From: Parcubacteria group bacterium GW2011_GWA2_42_14
GTDB taxonomy: Bacteria > Patescibacteriota > Minisyncoccia > Sungbacterales > GWA2-42-14
Reading direction: 5' to 3'
Length of the DNA: 64,000 nucleotides
NCBI GenBank assembly: GCA_000998135.1
Contig: LCCV01000011.1
Span: 4,132 to 68,131 of the forward strand
Below, piece after piece: positions 46,628 to 53,658 of this stretch (the stretch's first letter is position 1; every line of letters begins with the position of its first letter). The position numbers and the translations under genes are program-made. Under the pieces are notes generated by a model. The model worked only from the letters and a program-made list of their open reading frames with translations, made no database searches and was not told the origin of the DNA.

Positions 46628-48367
46628 ATGAATTTATCTGTCAATGCCCCGCCTTCGCCAGATGGGCTTCGGCGGGCAAGTAAAAACTGGATTGTAAGAC
46701 CTCAAGCGTCGGAGGAGTTTTTGGCGTTGCCAACTAACAACTTACAACTAACAACTTACAACAGATTACTGCGTCAGCTTTTGTGGAACAGGGGACTAAA
46801 AACTAAAGAAGAAATTGAAAAGTTTTTAAATCCTGATTATGAAAAGCATGTTCACGACCCGTTTTTATTTAAGGGGATGGAAAAGGCGGTTTTACGCGTA
46901 ATTAAGGCGATTGATTCCAAAGAAAAAATAATTATTTTTGCCGATTATGATGCCGATGGGATTGACGGGGCGGTGGTACTTGCCGAATTTTTAAAAAAGG
47001 TTGAGGCGAATTTTGAGGTTTTTATTCCCGATAGATTTGTGGAGCAATACGGCTTATCCATGGCGCGGGTTGAAGAATTTAAGGGGCTCGGCGCCAAATT
47101 GGTTATTACGATTGATTGCGGAATAACAGATTTTAACGAAATAGAAAAAGCCAATGAATACGGAATAGACACAATTATTTTTGACCATCATATTGTTCCT
47201 CCGAAATGGCCCAATGCTTATGCCATTATTGACCACAAGCAGGAAGATGATACTTACCCGGAAAAAGTTCTTTGCGGAACCGGATTAGCATTTAAACTTG
47301 TGCAAGGGGTTTTGGCTAGAAAAAATTACGGAATTATTCCCGGCTGGGAAAAATGGCTTTTGGACTCGGTGGCCATTGCTACGGTTGCCGATATGGTGCC
47401 CTTAACAGGAGAAAACAGGGTGTTGGTGAAATATGGTATTGACGTGTTGAAAAAAATGCGGAGAGCGGGTATCCGTTCCATACTTCAGTCGCGAAATATT
47501 CAGCCTCAAGAAATTACTTCCGGAACAATTGGTTTTGTTTTGTCGCCCCGTATTAATGCCGCAAGCAGAATGGACCATGCTAATACCGCTTTTGAACTAT
47601 TGCTTACGGAAAATCAGATTGAGGCCGAATGGCTTACCAAGCGTCTGGAAGAAAAAAATACGGAGCGAAGAGGTCTGGTTGACGAAATTTTAAAAAAACT
47701 TGATGAAAAATTGGCTGGTGTTGAGTCGCCCAAATTGATTTTTGAAGGTTCGCGGGAATGGCCGGCCGGGGTCTTGGGAATTGCCGCTAACCGCCTTCTT
47801 GAAAAATATCATTGCCCGGTGTTTTTGTATTCGCGCCAACAAAATGTTGTAAAGGGCTCATGTAGGGCATCCGAGGGAGTGAATGTGGTAGAGTTGATGC
47901 GGGGCGCTGAAGATTGTTTTTCCGATTTCGGGGGGCATGCTTTTTCCGGCGGTTTTTCTTTGCTTCCGGAAAAATTGGAGGACTTGGAAAAAAGATTGCG
48001 GAAATCGCTTGATAGTTTTATTTATAAGGAAATCAGCCGCGAGGCAGATGCCGAAATTTCTCTTGACGACGTTACTCCGGAAATTTACGCGATGTTGCAA
48101 GAACTTGAGCCGTTTGGTCAAGGAAATCCTAAACCGGTATTTTTGCTTCATGACATTTTGATAAAAGAGTTGCGCCATGTCGGTTCTGATAAAACCCACG
48201 TAAAGATGAAACTTAGCGATAAAGGAATAGGAGCAATTTACTTTCGCGGTTCTCATAACGGTTTTAAAGCGGGCGACACGGTTGATATTTTAGCCGAGCT
48301 TCAGGAAAACCGCTGGAATGGTTTTACCAATATTGAGTTAAATATCGTTGATGCGGTAAAAATTTAG
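46628..48367 (+). CDS. recJ: Single-stranded-DNA exonuclease RecJ (DHH family). The N-terminus reads through a family-F repeat, so the start may be downstream.
   Basis: 'IIIFADYDADGIDGAVVL'. 'FDHHIVPP' DHH motif. Confidence 0.75.
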   Translation: MNLSVNAPPSPDGLRRASKNWIVRPQASEEFLALPTNNLQLTTYNRLLRQLLWNRGLKTKEEIEKFLNPDYEKHVHDPFLFKGMEKAVLRVIKAIDSKEKIIIFADYDADGIDGAVVLAEFLKKVEANFEVFIPDRFVEQYGLSMARVEEFKGLGAKLVITIDCGITDFNEIEKANEYGIDTIIFDHHIVPPKWPNAYAIIDHKQEDDTYPEKVLCGTGLAFKLVQGVLARKNYGIIPGWEKWLLDSVAIATVADMVPLTGENRVLVKYGIDVLKKMRRAGIRSILQSRNIQPQEITSGTIGFVLSPRINAASRMDHANTAFELLLTENQIEAEWLTKRLEEKNTERRGLVDEILKKLDEKLAGVESPKLIFEGSREWPAGVLGIAANRLLEKYHCPVFLYSRQQNVVKGSCRASEGVNVVELMRGAEDCFSDFGGHAFSGGFSLLPEKLEDLEKRLRKSLDSFIYKEISREADAEISLDDVTPEIYAMLQELEPFGQGNPKPVFLLHDILIKELRHVGSDKTHVKMKLSDKGIGAIYFRGSHNGFKAGDTVDILAELQENRWNGFTNIELNIVDAVKI

Positions 48368-48376
48368 AAAAAATAT

Positions 48377-51016
48377 ATGGATAAACAGCAGGCAAAACAA
48401 AAAATAAAAGAATTGGTAGAAAAATACGAAACGGTTGTTAAAGAAGGTAATCTTAATAAATATACGGAGGAGGACACCAAAAAAGGTTTTATACAGCCGC
48501 TTTTTGAAGCGCTGGGATGGAATTTTCATGATAGAAAAGAAGTATCGGCAGAAGAATCGCGGTCAGATTACGGTTTTTACATTAACGAACGGCCGAAATT
48601 TTATCTTGAAGCCAAGGCATTAAGAGTTGATTTGATGAGGGAAGATTTTGCTAATCAAGCCATTCGTTATTCATGGAATAAGGGCGTAACCTGGGCCGTA
48701 TTAACCGATTTTGAAAATATTATCGTTTTTAACGCGCAAGATATTTCTAAAAATTGGGAACAAAAGAGATTTTTAACACTTCGTTATAATGAATATATAG
48801 AGCATTTTGATAAATTATGGCTTCTTTCCAAAGAGTCATTTCAAAATGATTTGCTGGATAAAGAAGCCGAGCCACTTGGTAAAAAACTTCAGAAAATCCC
48901 GATAAGCGCGCTTTTATCCGATGACCTTAATAAATGCAGGAATATTTTGATTGACGGGTTGTCCCAGTGCAATAGGGGAGTTGATAAGAATTTGCTTGAG
49001 GAGGGGGTGCAAAAGTTGCTTGACCGCCTTATTTTTATCCGGGTTGCCGAAGACAGGGAAATTGAGCCAAAAATTCTTTTGCCGTTAATTCGTTCAAATA
49101 AAGCAGATGAAGAAATATATAACGCGCTGGTTAAAAAATTCTGCGAACTTAATGAATTTTATGACTCTGACTTATTCGCGCCGCATCCGTTGGAAAAATG
49201 GGAAGAATACAGCGGCGCGGTAAAAAAAGTTATTAACATACTTCACGGCAAGAAAGGTTATTATGAATATGATTTTAAAGCTATGCCCGCCGATGTCCTT
49301 GGCGCTGTTTATGAAAACTATTTGGGATATCGCCTTTTACAATCCAAAAAAGGAGCAACTCTTGATAAAGATGCCAAGAAGCGAAAAGAGCAGGGGATTT
49401 ATTATACGCCGACTTTTATTGTTGACTATATAGTAAAAAATGCTTTAAAACCGGTTCTTGATAAATGTCAGAGTGTTTATGATTTGAAGAAAATAAGGGT
49501 GCTTGACCCGGCATGCGGTTCCGGTTCGTTTCTCATAAAAGCGCTTGAGGTTATTTATGATAAATATTATGAATTCAGCAATAGAAGTCCGGCGGAAACA
49601 AAAAGGACGATTTTGCTTGAAAATATTTACGGAGTTGATTTGGATGAACAGGCGGTTGAAATCGCGCGGCTTAATCTTTTGTTAAGCGCTTTAGATGAAA
49701 AAAGAAAACTCCCCGTGCTTTCACAAAACATCAAAAACGGAAATTCTTTGATTTCTGGAACAGACGAAGAATTAAAAAAATATTTCGGAAAAAACTTCAG
49801 GGACAAAAAGCCGTTTAACTGGGAAGAAGAATTCCCGGAGGTTTTCAAGCAAGGCGGGTTTGACGTTGTTATTGGAAACCCGCCGTATGTAAGAGTAGAC
49901 TCATTAGATGAGATAGATAAAGATTTTTGGAAAAAAAGTTTTATGGCGGCAGAGGGCAAATACGATTTATATTATCTGTTTATAGAACAATCACTTAAGT
50001 TATTAAAAGAAGGCGGAAATTTTGGATTTATAGTGCCAAATAAGTTTTGTGTTGCTGATTCAGGAAAGCAATTAAGAAATTTGATTTTTGATAAAACAAA
50101 AACTCGCGAATTTTTTAGCGTTAGCCAAATTGATGTTTTTAAAGACGCTGCAAATTATCCAGTAATTTTGTTTTTCCAAAAAGGAAAAAGTTTCGGAAAA
50201 ACATTTCTTACTTTTGCAAAAGAAGAAAATGAGGTTTCTAAACATAATTTAAATAGGATTCTTGTAAGAGATGAAGATTTAGAAATATTTTCAGGACATA
50301 TTATCCCGGTTAATATCGATAAGAGGCAATTAGAATTGGTACTTAAACTATCAAAAACAAATAGTAAATTTGAGGATTATTTGAAAATTTCCGAGGGGTT
50401 AAGAATTCCAGAAAAGTTAGAATCAAATCAAAAAACTGATTTTAAAATTGTTAAACAGTATCAATTTTCAAGATATTCGGACGTTCGACAAGGAAGTTTT
50501 ATTAAGTTAGATGACTTAAAGACGGTGGTAAATTTCAATACAGAAAGATTTAAAAATAGTCAAAAAGATAAAATTCTTATTGCAGAGGATGCATTATTTA
50601 TTTCAGCCACATTAGATAAGGATAAATATATACCCCAAGGCGGTGTTTATTTTGCAACTTTGTTAGGTAATAAAATTTCTTTGATTATTTTATTAGGTTT
50701 ATTAAATTCTAAGCTCTTATCTTTTATATACAAAATTTTGTTTGGTGGTATGCATATGGGCGGCGGGTATCTAAGGTATAGAACAAACTTTTTATATACA
50801 TTACCAGTTATAATTAAAGATAATAATTTTGAATTAGATAGTCTTGTGGATAAGATACTGAAGTTAAATAAGCAATTAGACAAAATTGCCGAGAATTCTA
50901 ACAAATGGAATGCTCTAAAATCCGAAATTGAGAAAACTGACAGGAAAATAGACGAGGAAGTTTATAATCTCTACGGCCTTACGCCGGAAGAAATAAAAAC
51001 TGTTGAAAGTTTATGA
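48377..51016 (+). CDS. Type IIG restriction-modification enzyme (PD-ExK nuclease + gamma-class N6-adenine MTase + TRD)
   Basis: N-terminal 'SDYGFYINERPKFYLEAKAL' (D...ExK). Motif I 'LDPACGSGSFL'. Motif IV 'VVIGNPPYVRVD'. C-terminal 'EEVYNLYGLTPEEIKTVE'. Confidence 0.75.
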   Translation: MDKQQAKQKIKELVEKYETVVKEGNLNKYTEEDTKKGFIQPLFEALGWNFHDRKEVSAEESRSDYGFYINERPKFYLEAKALRVDLMREDFANQAIRYSWNKGVTWAVLTDFENIIVFNAQDISKNWEQKRFLTLRYNEYIEHFDKLWLLSKESFQNDLLDKEAEPLGKKLQKIPISALLSDDLNKCRNILIDGLSQCNRGVDKNLLEEGVQKLLDRLIFIRVAEDREIEPKILLPLIRSNKADEEIYNALVKKFCELNEFYDSDLFAPHPLEKWEEYSGAVKKVINILHGKKGYYEYDFKAMPADVLGAVYENYLGYRLLQSKKGATLDKDAKKRKEQGIYYTPTFIVDYIVKNALKPVLDKCQSVYDLKKIRVLDPACGSGSFLIKALEVIYDKYYEFSNRSPAETKRTILLENIYGVDLDEQAVEIARLNLLLSALDEKRKLPVLSQNIKNGNSLISGTDEELKKYFGKNFRDKKPFNWEEEFPEVFKQGGFDVVIGNPPYVRVDSLDEIDKDFWKKSFMAAEGKYDLYYLFIEQSLKLLKEGGNFGFIVPNKFCVADSGKQLRNLIFDKTKTREFFSVSQIDVFKDAANYPVILFFQKGKSFGKTFLTFAKEENEVSKHNLNRILVRDEDLEIFSGHIIPVNIDKRQLELVLKLSKTNSKFEDYLKISEGLRIPEKLESNQKTDFKIVKQYQFSRYSDVRQGSFIKLDDLKTVVNFNTERFKNSQKDKILIAEDALFISATLDKDKYIPQGGVYFATLLGNKISLIILLGLLNSKLLSFIYKILFGGMHMGGGYLRYRTNFLYTLPVIIKDNNFELDSLVDKILKLNKQLDKIAENSNKWNALKSEIEKTDRKIDEEVYNLYGLTPEEIKTVESL

Positions 51017-51969
51017 AATTAAATCAAGTTATTAACCTTAAGAATTGGCATCAGCGGAATATTGATAACGTTGGTTATGGTACACGCGATAAGATCGTGC
51101 TAAAGCGTAGTAAAAAGGGGAGAGTTTATTTTCTTGCCAAGACATATGATAAAGATATTGGTGAATTGAGATCAGAGGTTTGCGCCTCAAACATGGGTAG
51201 ACTTTTCGGTTTTCCTGTCCAAAAAACATGGCTTTGTAAGATTCCGCAATACAAATCTTTGAAGTTAAGGCATCCAGCTGGTGTTCTTATTCAGTTAGAC
51301 GTTCGAAGGCAGGAGGATTTATTGCACGGCGCCGAAATTATTTCTTTAGTTGATAAGAAATTCGCCAGTTTAAATTTAAAAGAAAAAAGAAGGGTATACA
51401 CACTCAGGGTGGTTGTGGATAGCATCAGAAATTATGTCAGTAATCATCCAAACTCAAATAAGCTTTGGGATCAATTCTTCGAATTATTAGTTTTTGACGC
51501 TTTGATTGGCGGTACTGACAGGCACTATTATAATTGGGGCGTACTTGCAAAAGCGGACACAGGTGAATTTATCCGTCTTGCACCGGCATTTGATAATGGG
51601 ATTAGTTTAATGTGGAAGATAGAGGAATACCGGCCGCAGTTTATGAATGATTTATTTATGAGAGATTTTCCAAGAGGAGCTGAATCAATGTTTAAAAAAG
51701 TCAACGGAGGCAAGTATTCTCTGCTTGAGGTATTGGGTGAGTTATACAGAATTGGTGACTACAAAAAATCGAACATAGTTCAAGAAATTTTGGATCGAAT
51801 TGAAAAAGTTAAAGAATCAAAAATTAGATCAGTTTTATTGAACAATATACCAAAAAGGGCTCAATTCAAGACAAAAAATGATGAGTTGAGCTTAATCTGC
51901 GAGTATGTTAAAGTAAGATTAGATTTATTGAAACAAACCCTACGTGAGTTGAATCAAATAAACATATGA
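51013..51969 (+). CDS. HipA-like Ser/Thr kinase, C-domain-only (HipT-like)
   Basis: 'FDALIGGTDRHYYNWGVL' (HipA catalytic loop DxHxxN) and 'RLAPAFDNG' (DFG-like). ATGA overlap with the RM stop. Confidence 0.65.
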   Translation: MKLNQVINLKNWHQRNIDNVGYGTRDKIVLKRSKKGRVYFLAKTYDKDIGELRSEVCASNMGRLFGFPVQKTWLCKIPQYKSLKLRHPAGVLIQLDVRRQEDLLHGAEIISLVDKKFASLNLKEKRRVYTLRVVVDSIRNYVSNHPNSNKLWDQFFELLVFDALIGGTDRHYYNWGVLAKADTGEFIRLAPAFDNGISLMWKIEEYRPQFMNDLFMRDFPRGAESMFKKVNGGKYSLLEVLGELYRIGDYKKSNIVQEILDRIEKVKESKIRSVLLNNIPKRAQFKTKNDELSLICEYVKVRLDLLKQTLRELNQINI

Positions 51970-52277
51970 ACACATTACACTATAAGGTTATTTATAGGAA
52001 CGGGGATAAAATCCCGGTAGAAATTGCAAACTTTTATCGTGATGATAATGGCAATTTTGTGTTTGAATATAAGGAACAACCGAAGTATGAATTTCCGGGG
52101 TTTGATGCATCAATAAAGAAATATAAGAATGACCATCTATGGGAGCAAATTTCTTTTCGAGTGCCAAATAATATACGGAATCAATTTCCCAATGTTCCGC
52201 CGGAAGAGTTATTAAAAGAAACGGGGGGAAAATTAGTAACTGACCACTTTGAATTTCAGTTTGTAGAAAGTGTTTAG
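51966..52277 (+). CDS. 103-aa protein, possibly a HipS-like HipA N-terminal domain
   Basis: ATGA overlap with the kinase stop. Size and the 'NGNFVFEY' beta-rich N-terminus are compatible with a HipA N-subdomain. Confidence 0.35.
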   Translation: MNTLHYKVIYRNGDKIPVEIANFYRDDNGNFVFEYKEQPKYEFPGFDASIKKYKNDHLWEQISFRVPNNIRNQFPNVPPEELLKETGGKLVTDHFEFQFVESV

Positions 52278-52285
52278 AGTATTTT

Positions 52286-52316
52286 AAAAATCCTTACGTT
52301 AATTCGTAAGGATTTT
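52286..52316 (+). terminator. Rho-independent terminator after the kinase module
   Basis: AAAAATCCTTACG-TTAATT-CGTAAGGATTTTT. Confidence 0.45.
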
Positions 52317-52591
52317 TGTTTAATACAATTTGGAAACGGAAATGGTGTCAGGTACCCTTTTTATAGTATATATATTGAAACCTCCAGCAAGTGGCGCACG
52401 TTAAAATCCGAAATTGAAAAAACTGACAAGAAAATAGATGAAGAAGTTTATAAACTCTACGGCCTCGTGTCGGAAGACCCCGATAGTACAGCATAGCTGA
52501 CTACGGGGCAAGAATAAAAATTGTGGAAGAGTTAGGTAGAAAATAGCGGGTTGTTGCGGTAAATTCTAAAATATGCTAATATGGAATTGCT

Positions 52592-52849
52592 ATGTTAAGC
52601 GAATATATTGCAAAAAAATTAAAAGAGGCAAAATATAAACTTCTTAAAGATGGAAGTTATTTTGGCAAAATTCCGGGACTGAAGGGGGTATGGGCTAATG
52701 CCAAAAATTTGGAAGATTGCAGGGAAGAATTGCGTTCGGTCCTGGAAGATTGGTTGCTTTTTAAGATTAGGGATGGGGATTCTATCCCGGATTTACGCAT
52801 TGTAGAGGACCAAAGACGATTAGTAAAAGCCCCTGCGTATGCCAAATAG
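52592..52849 (+). CDS. hicB: HicB-family antitoxin
   Basis: 'YFGKIPGLKGVWANAKNLEDCREELRSVLEDWL'. Confidence 0.5.
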   Translation: MLSEYIAKKLKEAKYKLLKDGSYFGKIPGLKGVWANAKNLEDCREELRSVLEDWLLFKIRDGDSIPDLRIVEDQRRLVKAPAYAK

Positions 52850-53012
52850 TATATCTTGGAGAAAACTTGTACAGAAATTTCGTCGTTTGGGTTTTGACGG
52901 TCCGTATGCCGGAGGCCGTCATTTATTTATGAAGAAAAATGATTTGAAGGTTGTCATACCCAATCCGCACCCCCGCGATATAGACAAGGGTCTTGTCGCT
53001 GAGATATTGTAA
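52839..53012 (+). CDS. hicA: HicA-family mRNA-interferase toxin (57 aa, not in the ORF track)
   Basis: Translation 'MPNSISWRKLVQKFRRLGFDGPYAGGRHLFMKKNDLKVVIPNPHPRDIDKGLVAEIL'. Confidence 0.55.
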   Translation: MPNSISWRKLVQKFRRLGFDGPYAGGRHLFMKKNDLKVVIPNPHPRDIDKGLVAEIL

Positions 53013-53055
53013 CAAGCGGGGATTTCTGATGAAGAATGGGATAACGCATAATTTT

Positions 53056-53658
53056 ATGGCTGAAAAAAAATTTTACGCGTATAGTGTTCCGCGAACGGGA
53101 AAGCGGGGTATTGCTGAAAGTTGGAAGGAATGCGAAAAAATCGTGAAGGGTGAGGAGAACGCCCGTTTTAAGGGGTTCAAATCGCGGACGGACGCCGAGG
53201 ATTGGCTTAGCGCGGGCGCCGATTATTCAGTTAAAAAAAAGCTTCCTAAGGGGGTTTATTTTGATGCCGGCACCGGGCGCGGTAACGGGGTTGAAGTAAG
53301 TGTTACCGATGAAGAGGGAAATGACCTGCTTCACGAAGTTCTTCCGAAAAAGAAAATAAATCGTTTCGGTAAACACTTGTTGGGAGCTGAAGTTACGAAT
53401 AATTTCGGAGAACTTTTGGCATGCCGTTTCGCGCTTGAGATTGCCGTGAAGAAAAACATAAAAAAAATTTTTGGGGATAGCCGTTTGGTTATTGATTACT
53501 GGTCAAAGGGATATATGAATATGAAAGAGATGGCGCCGGAGACGATTGAACTTGCCTATATAGTTTCATCCTTAAGAAAAGATTTTGAGCGAAGAGGCGG
53601 TAGGATGGAATATGTTTCCGGAGACGACAACCCTGCTGATCTGGGGTTCCACAAATAA
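53056..53658 (+). CDS. rnhA: RNase H1 with N-terminal hybrid-binding domain
   Basis: 'KFYAYSVPRTGKRGIAESWKECEKIVKG...FKGFKSRTDAEDWL' HBD. Catalytic 'TNNFGELLA', 'GDSRLVI' and 'GDDNPADLGFH'. Start taken at the internal ATG at 53056, after hicA. Confidence 0.65.
   Translation: MAEKKFYAYSVPRTGKRGIAESWKECEKIVKGEENARFKGFKSRTDAEDWLSAGADYSVKKKLPKGVYFDAGTGRGNGVEVSVTDEEGNDLLHEVLPKKKINRFGKHLLGAEVTNNFGELLACRFALEIAVKKNIKKIFGDSRLVIDYWSKGYMNMKEMAPETIELAYIVSSLRKDFERRGGRMEYVSGDDNPADLGFHK

What the first reader, a model, noticed from the sequence alone, without database searches (positions are those of the whole stretch)
48377..53012. Type IIG RM enzyme translationally coupled to a split HipA-like kinase (HipT-like + HipS-like), bracketed by a duplicated RM 3' end and followed by hicBA: candidate new RM-linked kinase defense/abortive-infection module
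Seen in sequence:
- ORFs 48377..51016, 51013..51969 and 51966..52277 are joined by two 4-nt ATGA stop/start overlaps. That is the classic sign of translational coupling in one operon.
- The first protein is a complete type IIG RM fusion: PD-ExK 'SDYG...EAK', motif I 'DPACGSGSFL', motif IV 'NPPY', and the conserved MTase C-terminus 'EEVYNLYGLTPEEI'.
- The second protein carries the HipA catalytic loop 'IGGTDRHYYNWGVL' and the DFG-like 'RLAPAFDNG', but is only 318 aa. That is the size of HipT, the C-domain-only kinase of tripartite HipBST systems.
- The third protein is 103 aa, the size of HipS, and is beta-rich at its N-terminus.
- The gene order kinase-then-N-domain is reversed relative to the HipBST arrangement.
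- A ~90-bp copy of the RM gene's last codons (50907-50990) recurs at 52395-52486, just after the terminator hairpin at 52286-52316. The copy is about 85% identical and still encodes '...KSEIEKTDKKIDEEVYKLYGL'. The kinase pair therefore looks like a cassette inserted at the 3' end of the RM gene.
- A hicB/hicA pair follows, with hicA (57 aa) missing from the ORF track.

Inference: the kinase module may be a toxin or abortive-infection effector that monitors or backs up the RM enzyme. This echoes the kinase-plus-methyltransferase logic of Pgl/BREX systems, but with a HipA-family kinase. I do not know a described RM-HipTS operon.
Basis: partly seen in the sequence, partly recalled or inferred. 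Interest (0 to 1): 0.78.

Follow-up and report, generated by a model that had tools for sequence, protein, structure and literature searches.

The report
Split HipA kinase behind restriction gene
A restriction-modification gene in a Candidatus Sungbacteria genome is followed, with overlapping stop and start codons, by a two-gene "split HipA" kinase cassette of a kind already described from sequence but never tested; most relatives carry the cassette without any restriction gene, so the link is a lineage-specific docking and not a new integrated defence system.

Summary
A type IIG RM gene (48377-51016), a 318-aa HipA_C kinase (51013-51969) and a 103-aa ORF (51966-52277) are joined by ATGA overlaps. 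A strong hairpin, a 95-nt RM-tail relic and hicBA follow.

The "split HipA" reading is correct:
- The kinase lacks N-subdomain 1.
- Its sequence relatives are HipS-like-HIRAN (HipN) proteins.

The kinase-then-HipS order is not new. It is the hipJS architecture of Gerdes et al. 2021, and its HIRAN-bearing sister (hipIN) is PADLOC candidate PDC-M03.

The pair is an autonomous cassette:
- The partner follows the kinase in 33 of 33 Patescibacterial loci with room for it.
- Neighbours are mostly housekeeping genes, and sometimes an Xre HTH gene.
- The four closest RM homologs lack the pair.

RM docking is confined to one terminal clade. Within that clade the RM gene was lost twice (L018 scar ORF, L011 stub) while the pair stayed intact. 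The relic matches the RM family's near-invariant C-terminus, so it marks RM turnover and not necessarily a self-duplication.

Verdict: a new variant of a known, untested kind. A functional RM-kinase system is unsupported. Interest is moderate.

The parts
48377..51016 (+). Type IIG restriction-modification fusion gene (879 aa): N-terminal HSDR_N-type nuclease, Eco57I/MmeI-type gamma N6-adenine methyltransferase, TaqI_C-like specificity domain. It starts 9 nt after the recJ stop codon.
   Evidence: Pfam Eco57I 6.7e-45, N6_Mtase 1.9e-24, MmeI_Mtase 1.4e-16, TaqI_C 4.7e-7, HSDR_N 1.4e-5. PADLOC REase_MTase_IIG 1.3e-113. More than 7000 homologs, the closest at 65% identity.
50897..51016 (+). Conserved RM C-terminal tail (…NKWNALKSEIEKTDRKIDEEVYNLYGLTPEEIKTVESL*) plus the ATGA junction with the kinase start. 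This block is shared at the DNA level with other RM-docked loci and survives as a stub or scar where the RM gene is gone.
   Evidence: Alignment A4 and blastn. The tail is near-invariant across 120 family members. L011 keeps a 53-nt stub and L018 a 40-codon N+C scar ORF.
51013..51969 (+). HipA-family core Ser/Thr kinase (318 aa) lacking N-subdomain 1. The Gly-rich loop GYGTRDK lies at residues 20-27, the catalytic loop is GGTDRHYYNWG (D169), and the Mg-binding motif is AFDNG (D194).
   Evidence: Pfam HipA_C 5.2e-12. PADLOC PDC-M03A 3.7e-37 over the full length. PDB profile search: CtkA 1.2e-11, and HipA 0.02 aligned over the D309/D332 motifs. AF2 pLDDT 89.8; Foldseek CtkA TM 0.65-0.76, HipA/HipT about 0.5. 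Invariant residues in alignment A2.
51966..52277 (+). HipS-like protein (103 aa), a structural equivalent of HipA N-subdomain 1 and the putative antitoxin or regulatory subunit of the kinase.
52285..52318 (+). Intrinsic-terminator-like hairpin (perfect 14-bp stem, 6-nt loop, then a U-run) that closes the RM-kinase-HipS operon.
   Evidence: RNA fold dG -20 kcal/mol; z -5.27 against 200 shuffles, none folding as well.
52383..52477 (+). Non-functional relic of a type IIG RM C-terminal coding region (KWRTLKSEIEKTDKKIDEEVYKLYGL, then a divergent VSEDPDSTA*, stop at 52494-52496). It is a stump of an RM-family allele left by recombination at this locus.
   Evidence: the repeat finder D1 81% over 95 nt. 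blastn 88% over 76 nt to 50916-50991, 85% to L001 and 84% to L010 RM tails. The peptide equals the family consensus. Identical in 6 assemblies.
52592..52849 (+). hicB-like antitoxin gene (85 aa, UPF0150). It is a neighbouring, separate TA module.
   Evidence: Pfam UPF0150 8.2e-28. A 315-nt spacer and a terminator separate it from the kinase operon.
52839..53012 (+). hicA toxin gene (57 aa). It overlaps the hicB end by 11 nt.
   Evidence: Pfam HicA_toxin 5.7e-9. Called in the ENA and Logan assemblies but not in the NCBI record.

Best explanation
The 318-aa and 103-aa genes form an autonomous, mobile two-gene 'split HipA' cassette of the hipJS architecture: a core Hip kinase without N-subdomain 1, followed by a separately encoded HipS-like N-subdomain-1 protein.

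Shown here:
- The pair forms a large Patescibacterial family that is always kinase-then-partner.
- It usually sits among housekeeping genes, and sometimes has an Xre (HipB-like) gene in front.
- In one terminal clade, which includes this window, the cassette is docked onto the conserved 3' end of type IIG RM genes so that the RM stop overlaps the kinase start.
- RM alleles then turned over around it: the specificity domain was swapped in L001, the gene was deleted to a scar ORF in L018, it was reduced to a 53-nt stub in L011, and a stump of an RM tail lies downstream in this window.

Inferred by analogy with HipBST:
- The kinase is a growth-arresting toxin that phosphorylates an essential translation factor such as an aminoacyl-tRNA synthetase.
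- The HipS-like protein binds next to the Gly-rich loop and keeps the kinase off.
- Release of this inhibition, by phage infection or loss of the operon, arrests the cell.
- The RM gene supplies transcription and translational coupling, and co-transfer in a small RM + hipJS + hicBA islet. The two systems are mechanistically independent.
For: - Kinase identity and intact catalytic motifs.
- HipS-like fold of the partner.
- Sequence bridge from the partner to HipS-like-HIRAN (HipN / PDC-M03B) proteins, and via P0352 to Pfam Couple_hipA.
- Partner directly downstream in 33 of 33 loci with room.
- Both families are strongly conserved, with the partner always 98-117 aa.
- Upstream neighbours in other loci are LepA, ComM-like, PfkB, a clamp-loader subunit, DUF763, DUF1361 and TspO.
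- A census of 149 neighbours is mostly housekeeping.
- An Xre HTH gene lies upstream in L002, L015 and P0110.
- The four closest RM homologs lack the pair.
- RM-docked loci cluster in one terminal clade.
- The RM gene was lost with the pair intact in L018 (scar ORF that keeps the ATGA overlap) and L011 (stub).
- A hairpin terminator follows the partner gene.
- The hipJS and hipIN architectures and the HipS antitoxin mechanism are in the literature: PMC8262856, PMC10627512, PMC9325769.
- A HipA-family kinase has been validated in phage defence (HipAD): PMC13092281.
Against: - Nothing here is experimental. Toxicity, neutralisation and the kinase's target are all inferred.
- The partner has no detectable sequence similarity to solved HipS proteins, so the link is by fold and through HipN intermediates.
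- The nearest solved kinase is CtkA of H. pylori, which is not known as a TA toxin.
- The window's kinase (with P0002 and P0003) lacks a roughly 10-residue segment (RDTRRGQFR) present in every other family member, so its activity is uncertain.
- In full-length HipA the same N-subdomain is part of an active enzyme, so the partner could be a required subunit and not an inhibitor.
- RM docking recurs with at least three different RM bodies, all keeping a 4-nt overlap (window, L001, L014). This could reflect selection for linkage.
Confidence: 0.65

Rival explanations
1. This is an integrated RM-kinase defence system. The kinase pair would be a functional accessory of the type IIG enzyme. For example, it could guard the enzyme and trigger abortive infection when the RM is inhibited or overwhelmed, or it could regulate the enzyme by phosphorylation, in the manner of PglW/PglX in Pgl/BREX type 2.
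For: - 4-nt stop/start overlaps couple RM, kinase and partner.
- The same docking occurs with three different RM bodies: the window; L001 at 54% identity with a swapped specificity domain; and L014 at about 29% identity with an added PLD-SNF2 helicase.
- L009 has a type III RM immediately downstream.
- There is no separate promoter signal or regulator gene for the pair in this window.
Against: - Most family members have no RM nearby.
- The closest RM homologs carry other genes in that slot.
- In the docked clade itself the RM gene was deleted twice and the pair retained intact.
- Some relatives use an Xre HTH gene instead.
- No other BREX/Pgl components are present, and the PglX models score far below their cut-offs.
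Confidence: 0.12
2. This is a two-piece signalling kinase and not a toxin-antitoxin pair. The 103-aa protein would be an obligatory structural subunit that completes the HipA fold and activates or targets the kinase. The pair would then perform a non-lethal regulatory phosphorylation.
For: - Co-occurrence is strict and conservation is strong.
- The closest solved kinase, CtkA, is not a TA toxin.
- Neighbours are mostly housekeeping genes.
Against: - In both solved split systems (E. coli O127 and Legionella) HipS is the antitoxin (PMC10627512, PMC9325769).
- The distribution is patchy and mobile, with insertion at many unrelated sites. That is typical of TA or defence cassettes and not of core regulators.
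- The HIRAN-bearing sister family is listed as a defence candidate, PDC-M03.
Confidence: 0.12
3. This is a purely selfish addiction module with no defence role. The cassette would persist because losing it kills the cell. It would sit behind RM genes only because their near-invariant 3' end offers a recombination anchor.
For: - The pair is retained when the RM gene is lost.
- The RM family tail is near-invariant even at 50% overall identity, so it offers a recombination anchor.
- Breakpoints fall at the same T-x-E-E codons.
- Neighbours are not enriched for defence genes.
Against: - This cannot be separated from the best explanation using sequence alone.
- HipA-family kinases and many TA modules do protect against phage (PMC13092281).
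- The window's islet (RM + pair + hicBA) resembles a small defence cluster.
Confidence: 0.2

Closest known systems
[quoted passage not shown]
   Same: A bicistronic operon in which a small core Hip kinase (279-321 aa, Gly-rich loop near the N-terminus, no N-subdomain 1) is followed by a roughly 100-aa HipS-like putative antitoxin, with no HTH antitoxin required. This is exactly the architecture seen here.
   Different: Only 2 hipJS modules were in that data set, and none was tested experimentally. In their tree, the HipS of hipJS grouped with HipBST HipS and the HipA N-domain. The partner here has HipN-type (HIRAN-bearing) proteins as its detectable sequence relatives. The family here is Patescibacterial, numbers about 100 or more, and in one clade is docked on RM genes. 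Phylogenetic membership in HipJ was not tested.
hipIN modules = PADLOC candidate system PDC-M03
   Same: The kinase matches PDC-M03A over its full length (3.7e-37). The partner matches the N-terminal HipS-like half of PDC-M03B and shares the G(K/R)LVTDxFEF and FPGF motifs with HipN-type proteins.
   Different: HipN / PDC-M03B proteins are 224-250 aa with a C-terminal HIRAN DNA-end-binding domain. The partner here ends where HIRAN would begin. PDC-M03 is a candidate system; I found no validation of it.
HipBST of E. coli O127:H6 and Legionella pneumophila
   Different: The gene order is reversed (kinase then S). No HipB is present in this window. The kinase is not specifically HipT-like: there is no HipT hit by sequence profile and TM is about 0.5. 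The partner has no sequence similarity to HipS. An equivalent of HipS Trp65 could not be established; Trp59 is invariant in the short family but is Phe in the HipN relatives.
CtkA (JHP0940) of Helicobacter pylori
   Same: It is the closest solved structure by both sequence profile (1.2e-11) and fold (TM 0.65-0.76). It is a roughly 325-aa HipA-fold Ser/Thr kinase without the N-terminal subdomain.
   Different: CtkA is described as a secreted pro-inflammatory kinase. No HipS-like partner or TA role is known to me. Sequence identity is only 18-20%.
HipAD (DS-6) phage-defence system
   Same: A two-gene system with a HipA-family kinase whose catalytic residue is required for phage defence. It shows that Hip kinases can be defence effectors.
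   Different: Its partner is a DUF3037/DUF1829 protein and not a HipS-like domain. It is found in E. coli-type hosts and has no RM coupling.
Pgl / BREX type 2 (PglW kinase with PglX methyltransferase)
   Same: A protein kinase and an Eco57I-type N6-adenine methyltransferase are encoded together.
   Different: The kinase here is HipA-family and not PglW. PglZ, BrxC and the other components are absent. The RM protein scores far below the PglX cut-offs (113 bits against 500). The kinase pair is independent of the methyltransferase in most relatives.

Membership tests
HipA-family (Hip) kinase | HipA_C domain above Pfam's curated threshold | tested here: met
   PF07804 at 5.2e-12, 46.3 bits against a cut-off of 30.5. 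All full-length homologs carry PF07804.
HipA-family (Hip) kinase | Four core motifs: Gly-rich loop, activation/catalytic loop Asp, Mg-binding Asp, ATP-binding Lys | tested here: met
   In 25 sequences the following are invariant or nearly so: G21/G23/T24/R25/K27, K43, GGTDRH (D169), N174 and D194-N195-G196. D169 and D194 align with HipA D309 and D332 in the PDB profile alignment.
HipA-family (Hip) kinase | Ser/Thr kinase activity and autophosphorylation near the Gly-rich loop | not testable with these tools
   Thr24 is nearly invariant next to the loop, but activity needs biochemistry. The window's allele has a roughly 10-residue deletion relative to the family.
hipJS module (Gerdes et al. 2021) | Short core kinase (279-321 aa) lacking N-subdomain 1, with the Gly-rich loop close to the N-terminus | tested here: met
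   318 aa, with the loop at residues 20-27. The fold matches kinase cores only. Definition taken from PMC8262856, section 10.
hipJS module (Gerdes et al. 2021) | Adjacent downstream gene encoding a roughly 100-aa HipS-like protein without HIRAN | tested here: met
hipJS module (Gerdes et al. 2021) | Kinase falls in the HipJ subclade of main clade XI | not tested
   No HipJ reference sequences were available; the stored Table S1 is truncated and holds no 'HipJ'. The strong PDC-M03A match places the kinase near HipI/HipJ only indirectly.
hipIN / PADLOC PDC-M03 | Kinase matching PDC-M03A | tested here: met
   PDLC04340 at 3.7e-37 covering residues 5-310 against profile positions 2-276 of 280. Eight further PDC-M03A models also hit.
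hipIN / PADLOC PDC-M03 | Partner made of a HipS-like domain plus a C-terminal HIRAN domain (about 225-250 aa) | tested here: not met
   The partner is 103 aa and matches only profile positions of about 30-120 of 250. True PDC-M03B proteins (P0346 and others) have HIRAN. The whole partner family is 98-117 aa, so this is not a truncation.
HipBST tripartite TA system | Gene order hipB-hipS-hipT with an HTH HipB | tested here: not met
   The order is kinase then S, and no HTH gene is present in the window. An Xre HTH lies upstream in L002, L015 and P0110 only, giving the order B-kinase-S.
HipBST tripartite TA system | HipS: fold of HipA N-subdomain 1 | tested here: met
HipBST tripartite TA system | HipS Trp65-type residue inserted at the kinase Gly-rich loop | tested here: inconclusive
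   Trp59 (LWxQI) is invariant in the short family but is Phe in the HipN-type relatives. No residue-level structural alignment or complex model could be made.
HipBST tripartite TA system | Kinase specifically related to HipT (clade III) | tested here: not met
   The PDB profile search finds CtkA (1.2e-11) and HipA (0.02) but no HipT at E up to 1. Foldseek TM to HipT is 0.46-0.54, against 0.65-0.68 for CtkA.
Type IIG restriction-modification enzyme | Single polypeptide with an N-terminal PD-(D/E)XK nuclease, a gamma-class N6-adenine MTase (motif I DPACGSG, motif IV NPPY) and a C-terminal specificity domain | tested here: met
   Pfam HSDR_N, Eco57I, N6_Mtase, MmeI_Mtase and TaqI_C. PADLOC REase_MTase_IIG at 1.3e-113. 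The motifs are in the translation. Enzymatic activity is not testable here.
BREX / Pgl | PglX at the family threshold plus PglZ, BrxC/PglY and (for type 2) the PglW kinase | tested here: not met
   NCBIfam PglX models score 63-113 bits against cut-offs of 400-900. The neighbouring genes are recJ, hicBA, an RNase H-like gene and the CCA-adding enzyme.
HicAB toxin-antitoxin | HicA toxin domain next to a HicB/UPF0150 antitoxin | tested here: met
   PF07927 at 5.7e-9 and PF21748 at 8.2e-28. The genes overlap by 11 nt.

The most novel reading that the evidence does not exclude
In the RM-docked clade, translation of the kinase and its HipS-like inhibitor is obligatorily coupled to translation of the RM open reading frame. 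L018 preserves this coupling through a 40-codon N+C scar ORF. The most novel reading still allowed is that the coupling is functional. The pair would act as a guard whose toxin/antitoxin balance reports on expression or integrity of the RM gene, for example after phage shut-off or anti-restriction, giving a two-layer RM plus abortive-infection unit. On this reading the near-invariant RM tail would be a dedicated docking site that lets the cassette move between type IIG alleles.
Probability: 0.1. Interest if true: 0.7.

Novelty: new variant of a known kind. Interest (0 to 1): 0.4.

Why it matters
- **A test case for hipJS.** Split HipA kinases with a downstream HipS-like gene were predicted in 2021 from only two examples and have never been tested. 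This window belongs to a family of about a hundred or more such modules in Patescibacteria. Both proteins give confident structure models, which makes the family a good test case for how a detached N-subdomain controls a Hip kinase.
- **Defence in CPR bacteria.** The finding adds a candidate toxin or abortive-infection module to CPR bacteria, which largely lack CRISPR and rely on RM.
- **A record of gene flux.** The series of intact RM, swapped RM, scar ORF, stub and downstream stump is a clear natural record of gene turnover at the conserved 3' end of a type IIG RM family. It argues that TA-type cassettes can outlive the RM genes they ride behind.
- **What it does not show.** It does not establish a new class of RM-linked kinase defence.

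Tried and rejected
1. **Truncated PDC-M03B.** I considered that the 103-aa ORF was a truncated PDC-M03B, suggested by its partial match to a 250-aa profile. Rejected: about 100 homologs are all 98-117 aa and no HIRAN remnant lies downstream.
2. **Assembly artefact.** Rejected for the relic: six independent assemblies are identical across the spacer.
3. **Recent duplication of this gene's own 3' end.** This cannot be upheld. The peptide is the consensus of the whole RM family, and the relic is about as similar to the L001 and L010 tails (85% and 84%) as to the local one (88%).
4. **Sequence-level link from the partner to solved HipS.** None was found by phmmer or profile search at E up to 10.
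5. **Sigma-70 and terminator consensus scan.** Uninformative: promoter-like sites were below the shuffle expectation, and the scan missed the real hairpin.
6. **The 259-aa + 105-aa pair after an RM homolog in L053 as a cryptic kinase/HipS pair.** Rejected: only a weak DUF3800 hit and no Hip signal.
7. **Defence-island enrichment around the family.** Not found. The 149 neighbours are mostly housekeeping, with only isolated RM or candidate hits.
8. **Second RM or kinase copy in the window as the relic's source.** None exists.
9. **Long multi-stretch hits P0341 and P0353 to the partner profile.** P0353 was scanned and is a MucBP-repeat protein that matches only profile positions 3-40. P0341 (2026 aa, 13 stretches at positions 4-37) shows the same pattern but was not scanned. 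I judged both spurious.
6b. **Literature.** Searches for 'PDC-M03', 'hipJS' or HipA in Patescibacteria gave nothing beyond Gerdes et al. 2021.

Full report
**What is in the sequence.**
Three plus-strand ORFs lie at 48377..51016 (879 aa), 51013..51969 (318 aa) and 51966..52277 (103 aa). They are joined by two ATGA stop/start overlaps that can be read directly in the DNA.

- The first protein is a complete type IIG restriction-modification fusion. Its Pfam hits are Eco57I 6.7e-45, N6_Mtase, MmeI_Mtase, TaqI_C and HSDR_N. PADLOC REase_MTase_IIG scores 1.3e-113. The DPACGSGSFL and NPPY motifs are present.
- The second protein passes Pfam HipA_C, at 46.3 bits against a cut-off of 30.5.
- A perfect 14-bp hairpin with a U-run follows the third gene at 52285-52318. 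Its dG is -20 kcal/mol and its z-score is -5.3.
- A 95-nt copy of the RM tail lies at 52383-52477. It is 81% identical to 50897-50991, and the 76-nt core is 88% identical, E 7e-22.
- hicB (UPF0150, 8e-28) and hicA (5.7e-9) follow.
- The source is Candidatus Sungbacteria RIFCSPLOWO2_12_FULL_41.
- Six independent assemblies have the same gene order and a 100% identical spacer including the relic, so it is not an assembly artefact.

**The kinase.**
In an alignment of 25 family members several elements are invariant or nearly so. These are the Gly-rich loop (GxGTRxK at residues 20-27), a conserved Lys43, the catalytic loop GGTDRHxxNWG and the FDNG motif. In a profile search of PDB sequences, D169 and D194 align with HipA D309 and D332.

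- The Gly-rich loop sits about 20 residues from the N-terminus, so HipA N-subdomain 1 is absent.
- The AF2 model is confident (pLDDT 89.8).
- Its best structural match is H. pylori CtkA, with TM 0.65-0.76 at E about 1e-10. HipA and HipT cores come next at TM about 0.5.
- By sequence profile, CtkA scores 1.2e-11 and HipA 0.02, with no HipT hit.

So the kinase is 'HipT-like' only in the architectural sense of being a core kinase without the N-subdomain. It is not a close relative of HipT.

**The 103-aa partner.**
Pfam and NCBIfam find nothing. Searches against PDB sequences find no HipS. However, about 100 homologs of 98-117 aa exist and are strongly conserved.

- *Sequence evidence.* An exhaustive profile search of 1.8 billion representatives gives a compact family of 26 clusters.
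  - Besides the roughly 100-aa proteins, it includes six proteins of 224-249 aa. In these the match occupies residues of about 15-120.
  - All six have a C-terminal HIRAN domain. One of them also scores on Pfam Couple_hipA over the matched region.
  - All six match PADLOC PDC-M03B over their full length, at 1e-53 to 1e-69.
  - The alignment shows shared FPGF, R65 and G(K/R)LVTDxFEF motifs. In the longer proteins the HIRAN domain begins where the short proteins end.

The partner is therefore a HipS-like domain of the branch found in HipN antitoxins, without HIRAN.

**What is already known.**
[quoted passage not shown] It contains short core kinases of 279-321 aa with downstream putative antitoxins. 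HipI pairs with HipN (HipS-like + HIRAN) in 14 modules, and HipJ pairs with HipS in 2 modules. They suggested that hipJS arose from hipIN by loss of HIRAN. None of these modules had been tested.

- PADLOC's candidate PDC-M03 is the hipIN type.
- In HipBST, HipS is the antitoxin. It blocks the Gly-rich loop, and Trp65 is essential for this (PMC10627512).
- A HipA-family kinase has since been validated as a phage-defence effector (HipAD/DS-6, PMC13092281).
- I found no paper on PDC-M03, on hipJS experiments, or on Hip kinases in Patescibacteria.

**Is the pair tied to the RM gene?**
I fetched 41 related loci from genomes and metagenomes, all Patescibacteria-type.

- The partner lies directly after the kinase in 33 of 33 loci that have room for it.
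- A homolog of the window's RM lies upstream only in L001, L010 and, distantly, L014.
- Elsewhere the upstream gene is LepA, a ComM-like ATPase, PfkB, a clamp-loader subunit, DUF763, DUF1361, TspO or an unknown.
- In L002, L015 and P0110 an Xre-type HTH gene precedes the kinase, giving the order B-kinase-S.
- A census of 149 genes within 5 kb in 16 long loci is dominated by housekeeping functions. The isolated defence hits include a convergent type III RM in L009.
- Conversely, the four closest RM homologs (62-65% identity) have other genes in the downstream slot. These are an EVE/PD-(D/E)XK nuclease, an AAA_14/DUF4143 ATPase, an S24 peptidase, and unknowns.

The pair is thus an autonomous cassette and the RM link is the exception.

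**The RM-docked clade and RM turnover.**
In a neighbour-joining tree of the kinases, the window, L001, L010, L011 and L018 form one terminal clade. L014 falls in a neighbouring subclade (a small distance tree, so tentative). The states of the RM gene across these loci are as follows.

- *L001.* The RM is 54% identical over residues 1-615 and 64% over the last 66 residues. There is no match across the specificity region, so that region has been swapped.
- *L014.* A roughly 29%-identical Eco57I-type protein is preceded by a PLD-SNF2 helicase and still overlaps the kinase start by 4 nt.
- *L011.* There is no RM gene, but a 53-nt stub encoding ..KLYGLTLEEIKIVESL* abuts the kinase.
- *L018.* A 40-codon ORF, MDKSEKLKRIWDLVEKYKSALNNGQIKKYTEEEIKIVESL*, is the RM N-terminus fused to its C-terminal tail. 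The join falls at an ACGGARGAGGA microhomology, and the ORF keeps the ATGA overlap with the kinase.

Homology among these loci ends about 15-20 nt after the partner's stop codon. So the RM gene was lost at least twice while the kinase pair stayed intact. This argues against mechanistic dependence of the pair on the RM enzyme.

**The relic.**
The last 40 or so residues of this RM family are almost invariant even between members only 50% identical overall: NSxKWxxIKSEIEKTDKKIDEEVYKLYGLTxEEIKIVE...

- The relic peptide equals that consensus.
- At the DNA level it is about as close to the L001 and L010 tails (85% and 84%) as to the local tail (88%).
- It breaks off at the same T-x-E-E codons that form the L018 deletion joint.
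- It lacks the distal IKxVE tail that all 120 family members have.

It is best read as the stump of an RM-family allele left by recombination at this conserved anchor. That could be displacement of an earlier allele or a single crossover. It is not necessarily a duplication of the present gene's own end. The exact event cannot be reconstructed from these data.

**Mechanism: shown and inferred.**
- *Shown.* The domain identities, intact catalytic motifs, strict pairing, autonomy and mobility of the pair, lineage-specific docking, and an operon end at a hairpin.
- *Inferred from HipBST and hipJS/hipIN.* The kinase is a growth-arresting toxin that phosphorylates an essential translation component. 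The HipS-like protein binds beside the Gly-rich loop and inhibits it. Here, expression rides on the RM transcript by termination-reinitiation.
- *Uncertain.* Whether the partner inhibits the kinase or completes it. The effect of the roughly 10-residue deletion (RDTRRGQFR) that is unique to the window's allele and its near-identical relatives. The kinase's target. Any role in phage defence.

**Verdict.**
The 'split HipA kinase' reading is confirmed and now rests on fold and sequence evidence. The proposal of a new RM-linked kinase defence module is not supported as a functional unit, and the gene arrangement has been published. What is new:
- A large Patescibacterial family of hipJS-type modules.
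- Their docking on the conserved 3' end of type IIG RM genes in one clade.
- A clear series of RM-loss scars around a persistent cassette.

Noticed in passing
L018:1451-1573: A 40-codon scar ORF in which the RM N-terminus (MDK…KYTEE) is fused to the RM C-terminal tail (EIKIVESL*) at an ACGGARGAGGA microhomology. It still overlaps the kinase start by ATGA. A TATAAT-containing upstream region is retained, so the kinase pair may still use the former RM expression signals.
   Followed up: yes
L011:9952-10004: A 53-nt stub of the RM tail (..KLYGLTLEEIKIVESL*) lies directly in front of the kinase, with no RM gene in the locus. The upstream genes are an unknown 368-aa protein, a MazG-like protein, and a SelR gene carrying a GIY-YIG domain.
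   Followed up: partly
window 51295-51310 (kinase residues ~95-100): The window's kinase, and the near-identical P0002 and P0003, lack a roughly 10-residue segment (consensus RDTRRGQFR) that lies between DVRRQ and EDLLHG in every other family member. It falls in a beta-hairpin loop of the model. The effect on activity is unknown.
   Followed up: no
L014:3381-10004: An 1125-aa PLD + SNF2/ResIII helicase protein is followed by a 1079-aa Eco57I-type methyltransferase whose stop overlaps the kinase start. This is a helicase-plus-methyltransferase defence-like pair, different from the window's RM, on an 867-kb contig.
   Followed up: partly
L009:11278-15431 (minus strand): A type III RM system (Res 854 aa at 3.8e-154, Mod 528 aa at 3.6e-141) lies convergent to, and 2 nt from, the end of the HipS-like gene. 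This is in a Peregrinibacteria locus whose kinase is only 43% identical to the window's.
   Followed up: partly
L002:177-386, L015:288-497, P0110: Xre-type HTH (HipB-like) genes of about 70 aa lie immediately upstream of the kinase in some relatives. In P0110 the HTH is read in frame with the kinase. Some family members may therefore be tripartite with the order B-kinase-S.
   Followed up: partly
L048:5691-6545; L049:5774-6685; L051:5779-6312; L053:5720-6861: The slot immediately 3' of this type IIG RM family varies between relatives. It holds an EVE + PD-(D/E)XK (YhcG/NucS-like) nuclease, an AAA_14 + DUF4143 ATPase, an S24 peptidase, or a weak-DUF3800 protein plus an unknown 105-aa protein. 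It may be a hotspot for accessory genes.
   Followed up: partly
window 48367-48377: The RM start codon lies only 9 nt after the recJ stop codon. The scan found no promoter-like site in between. The RM-kinase-partner operon may be co-transcribed with recJ.
   Followed up: no
window 52839-53012 and 52993-53658: hicA (57 aa) is not called in the NCBI record of this genome but is called in the ENA and Logan assemblies. The next ORF has an RNase H1 N-terminal (Cauli_VI) domain plus a weak RNase H hit. As a TTG-started 221-aa ORF it overlaps the end of hicA; other annotations start it later, at 200-209 aa.
   Followed up: partly
P0341 (2026 aa), P0353 (825 aa): Two long repeat proteins match only positions of about 3-40 of the partner profile, in 13 and 8 stretches respectively. 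P0353 is a MucBP-repeat protein; P0341 was not scanned. I took both to be a chance resemblance of a beta-hairpin repeat and not homology.
   Followed up: partly
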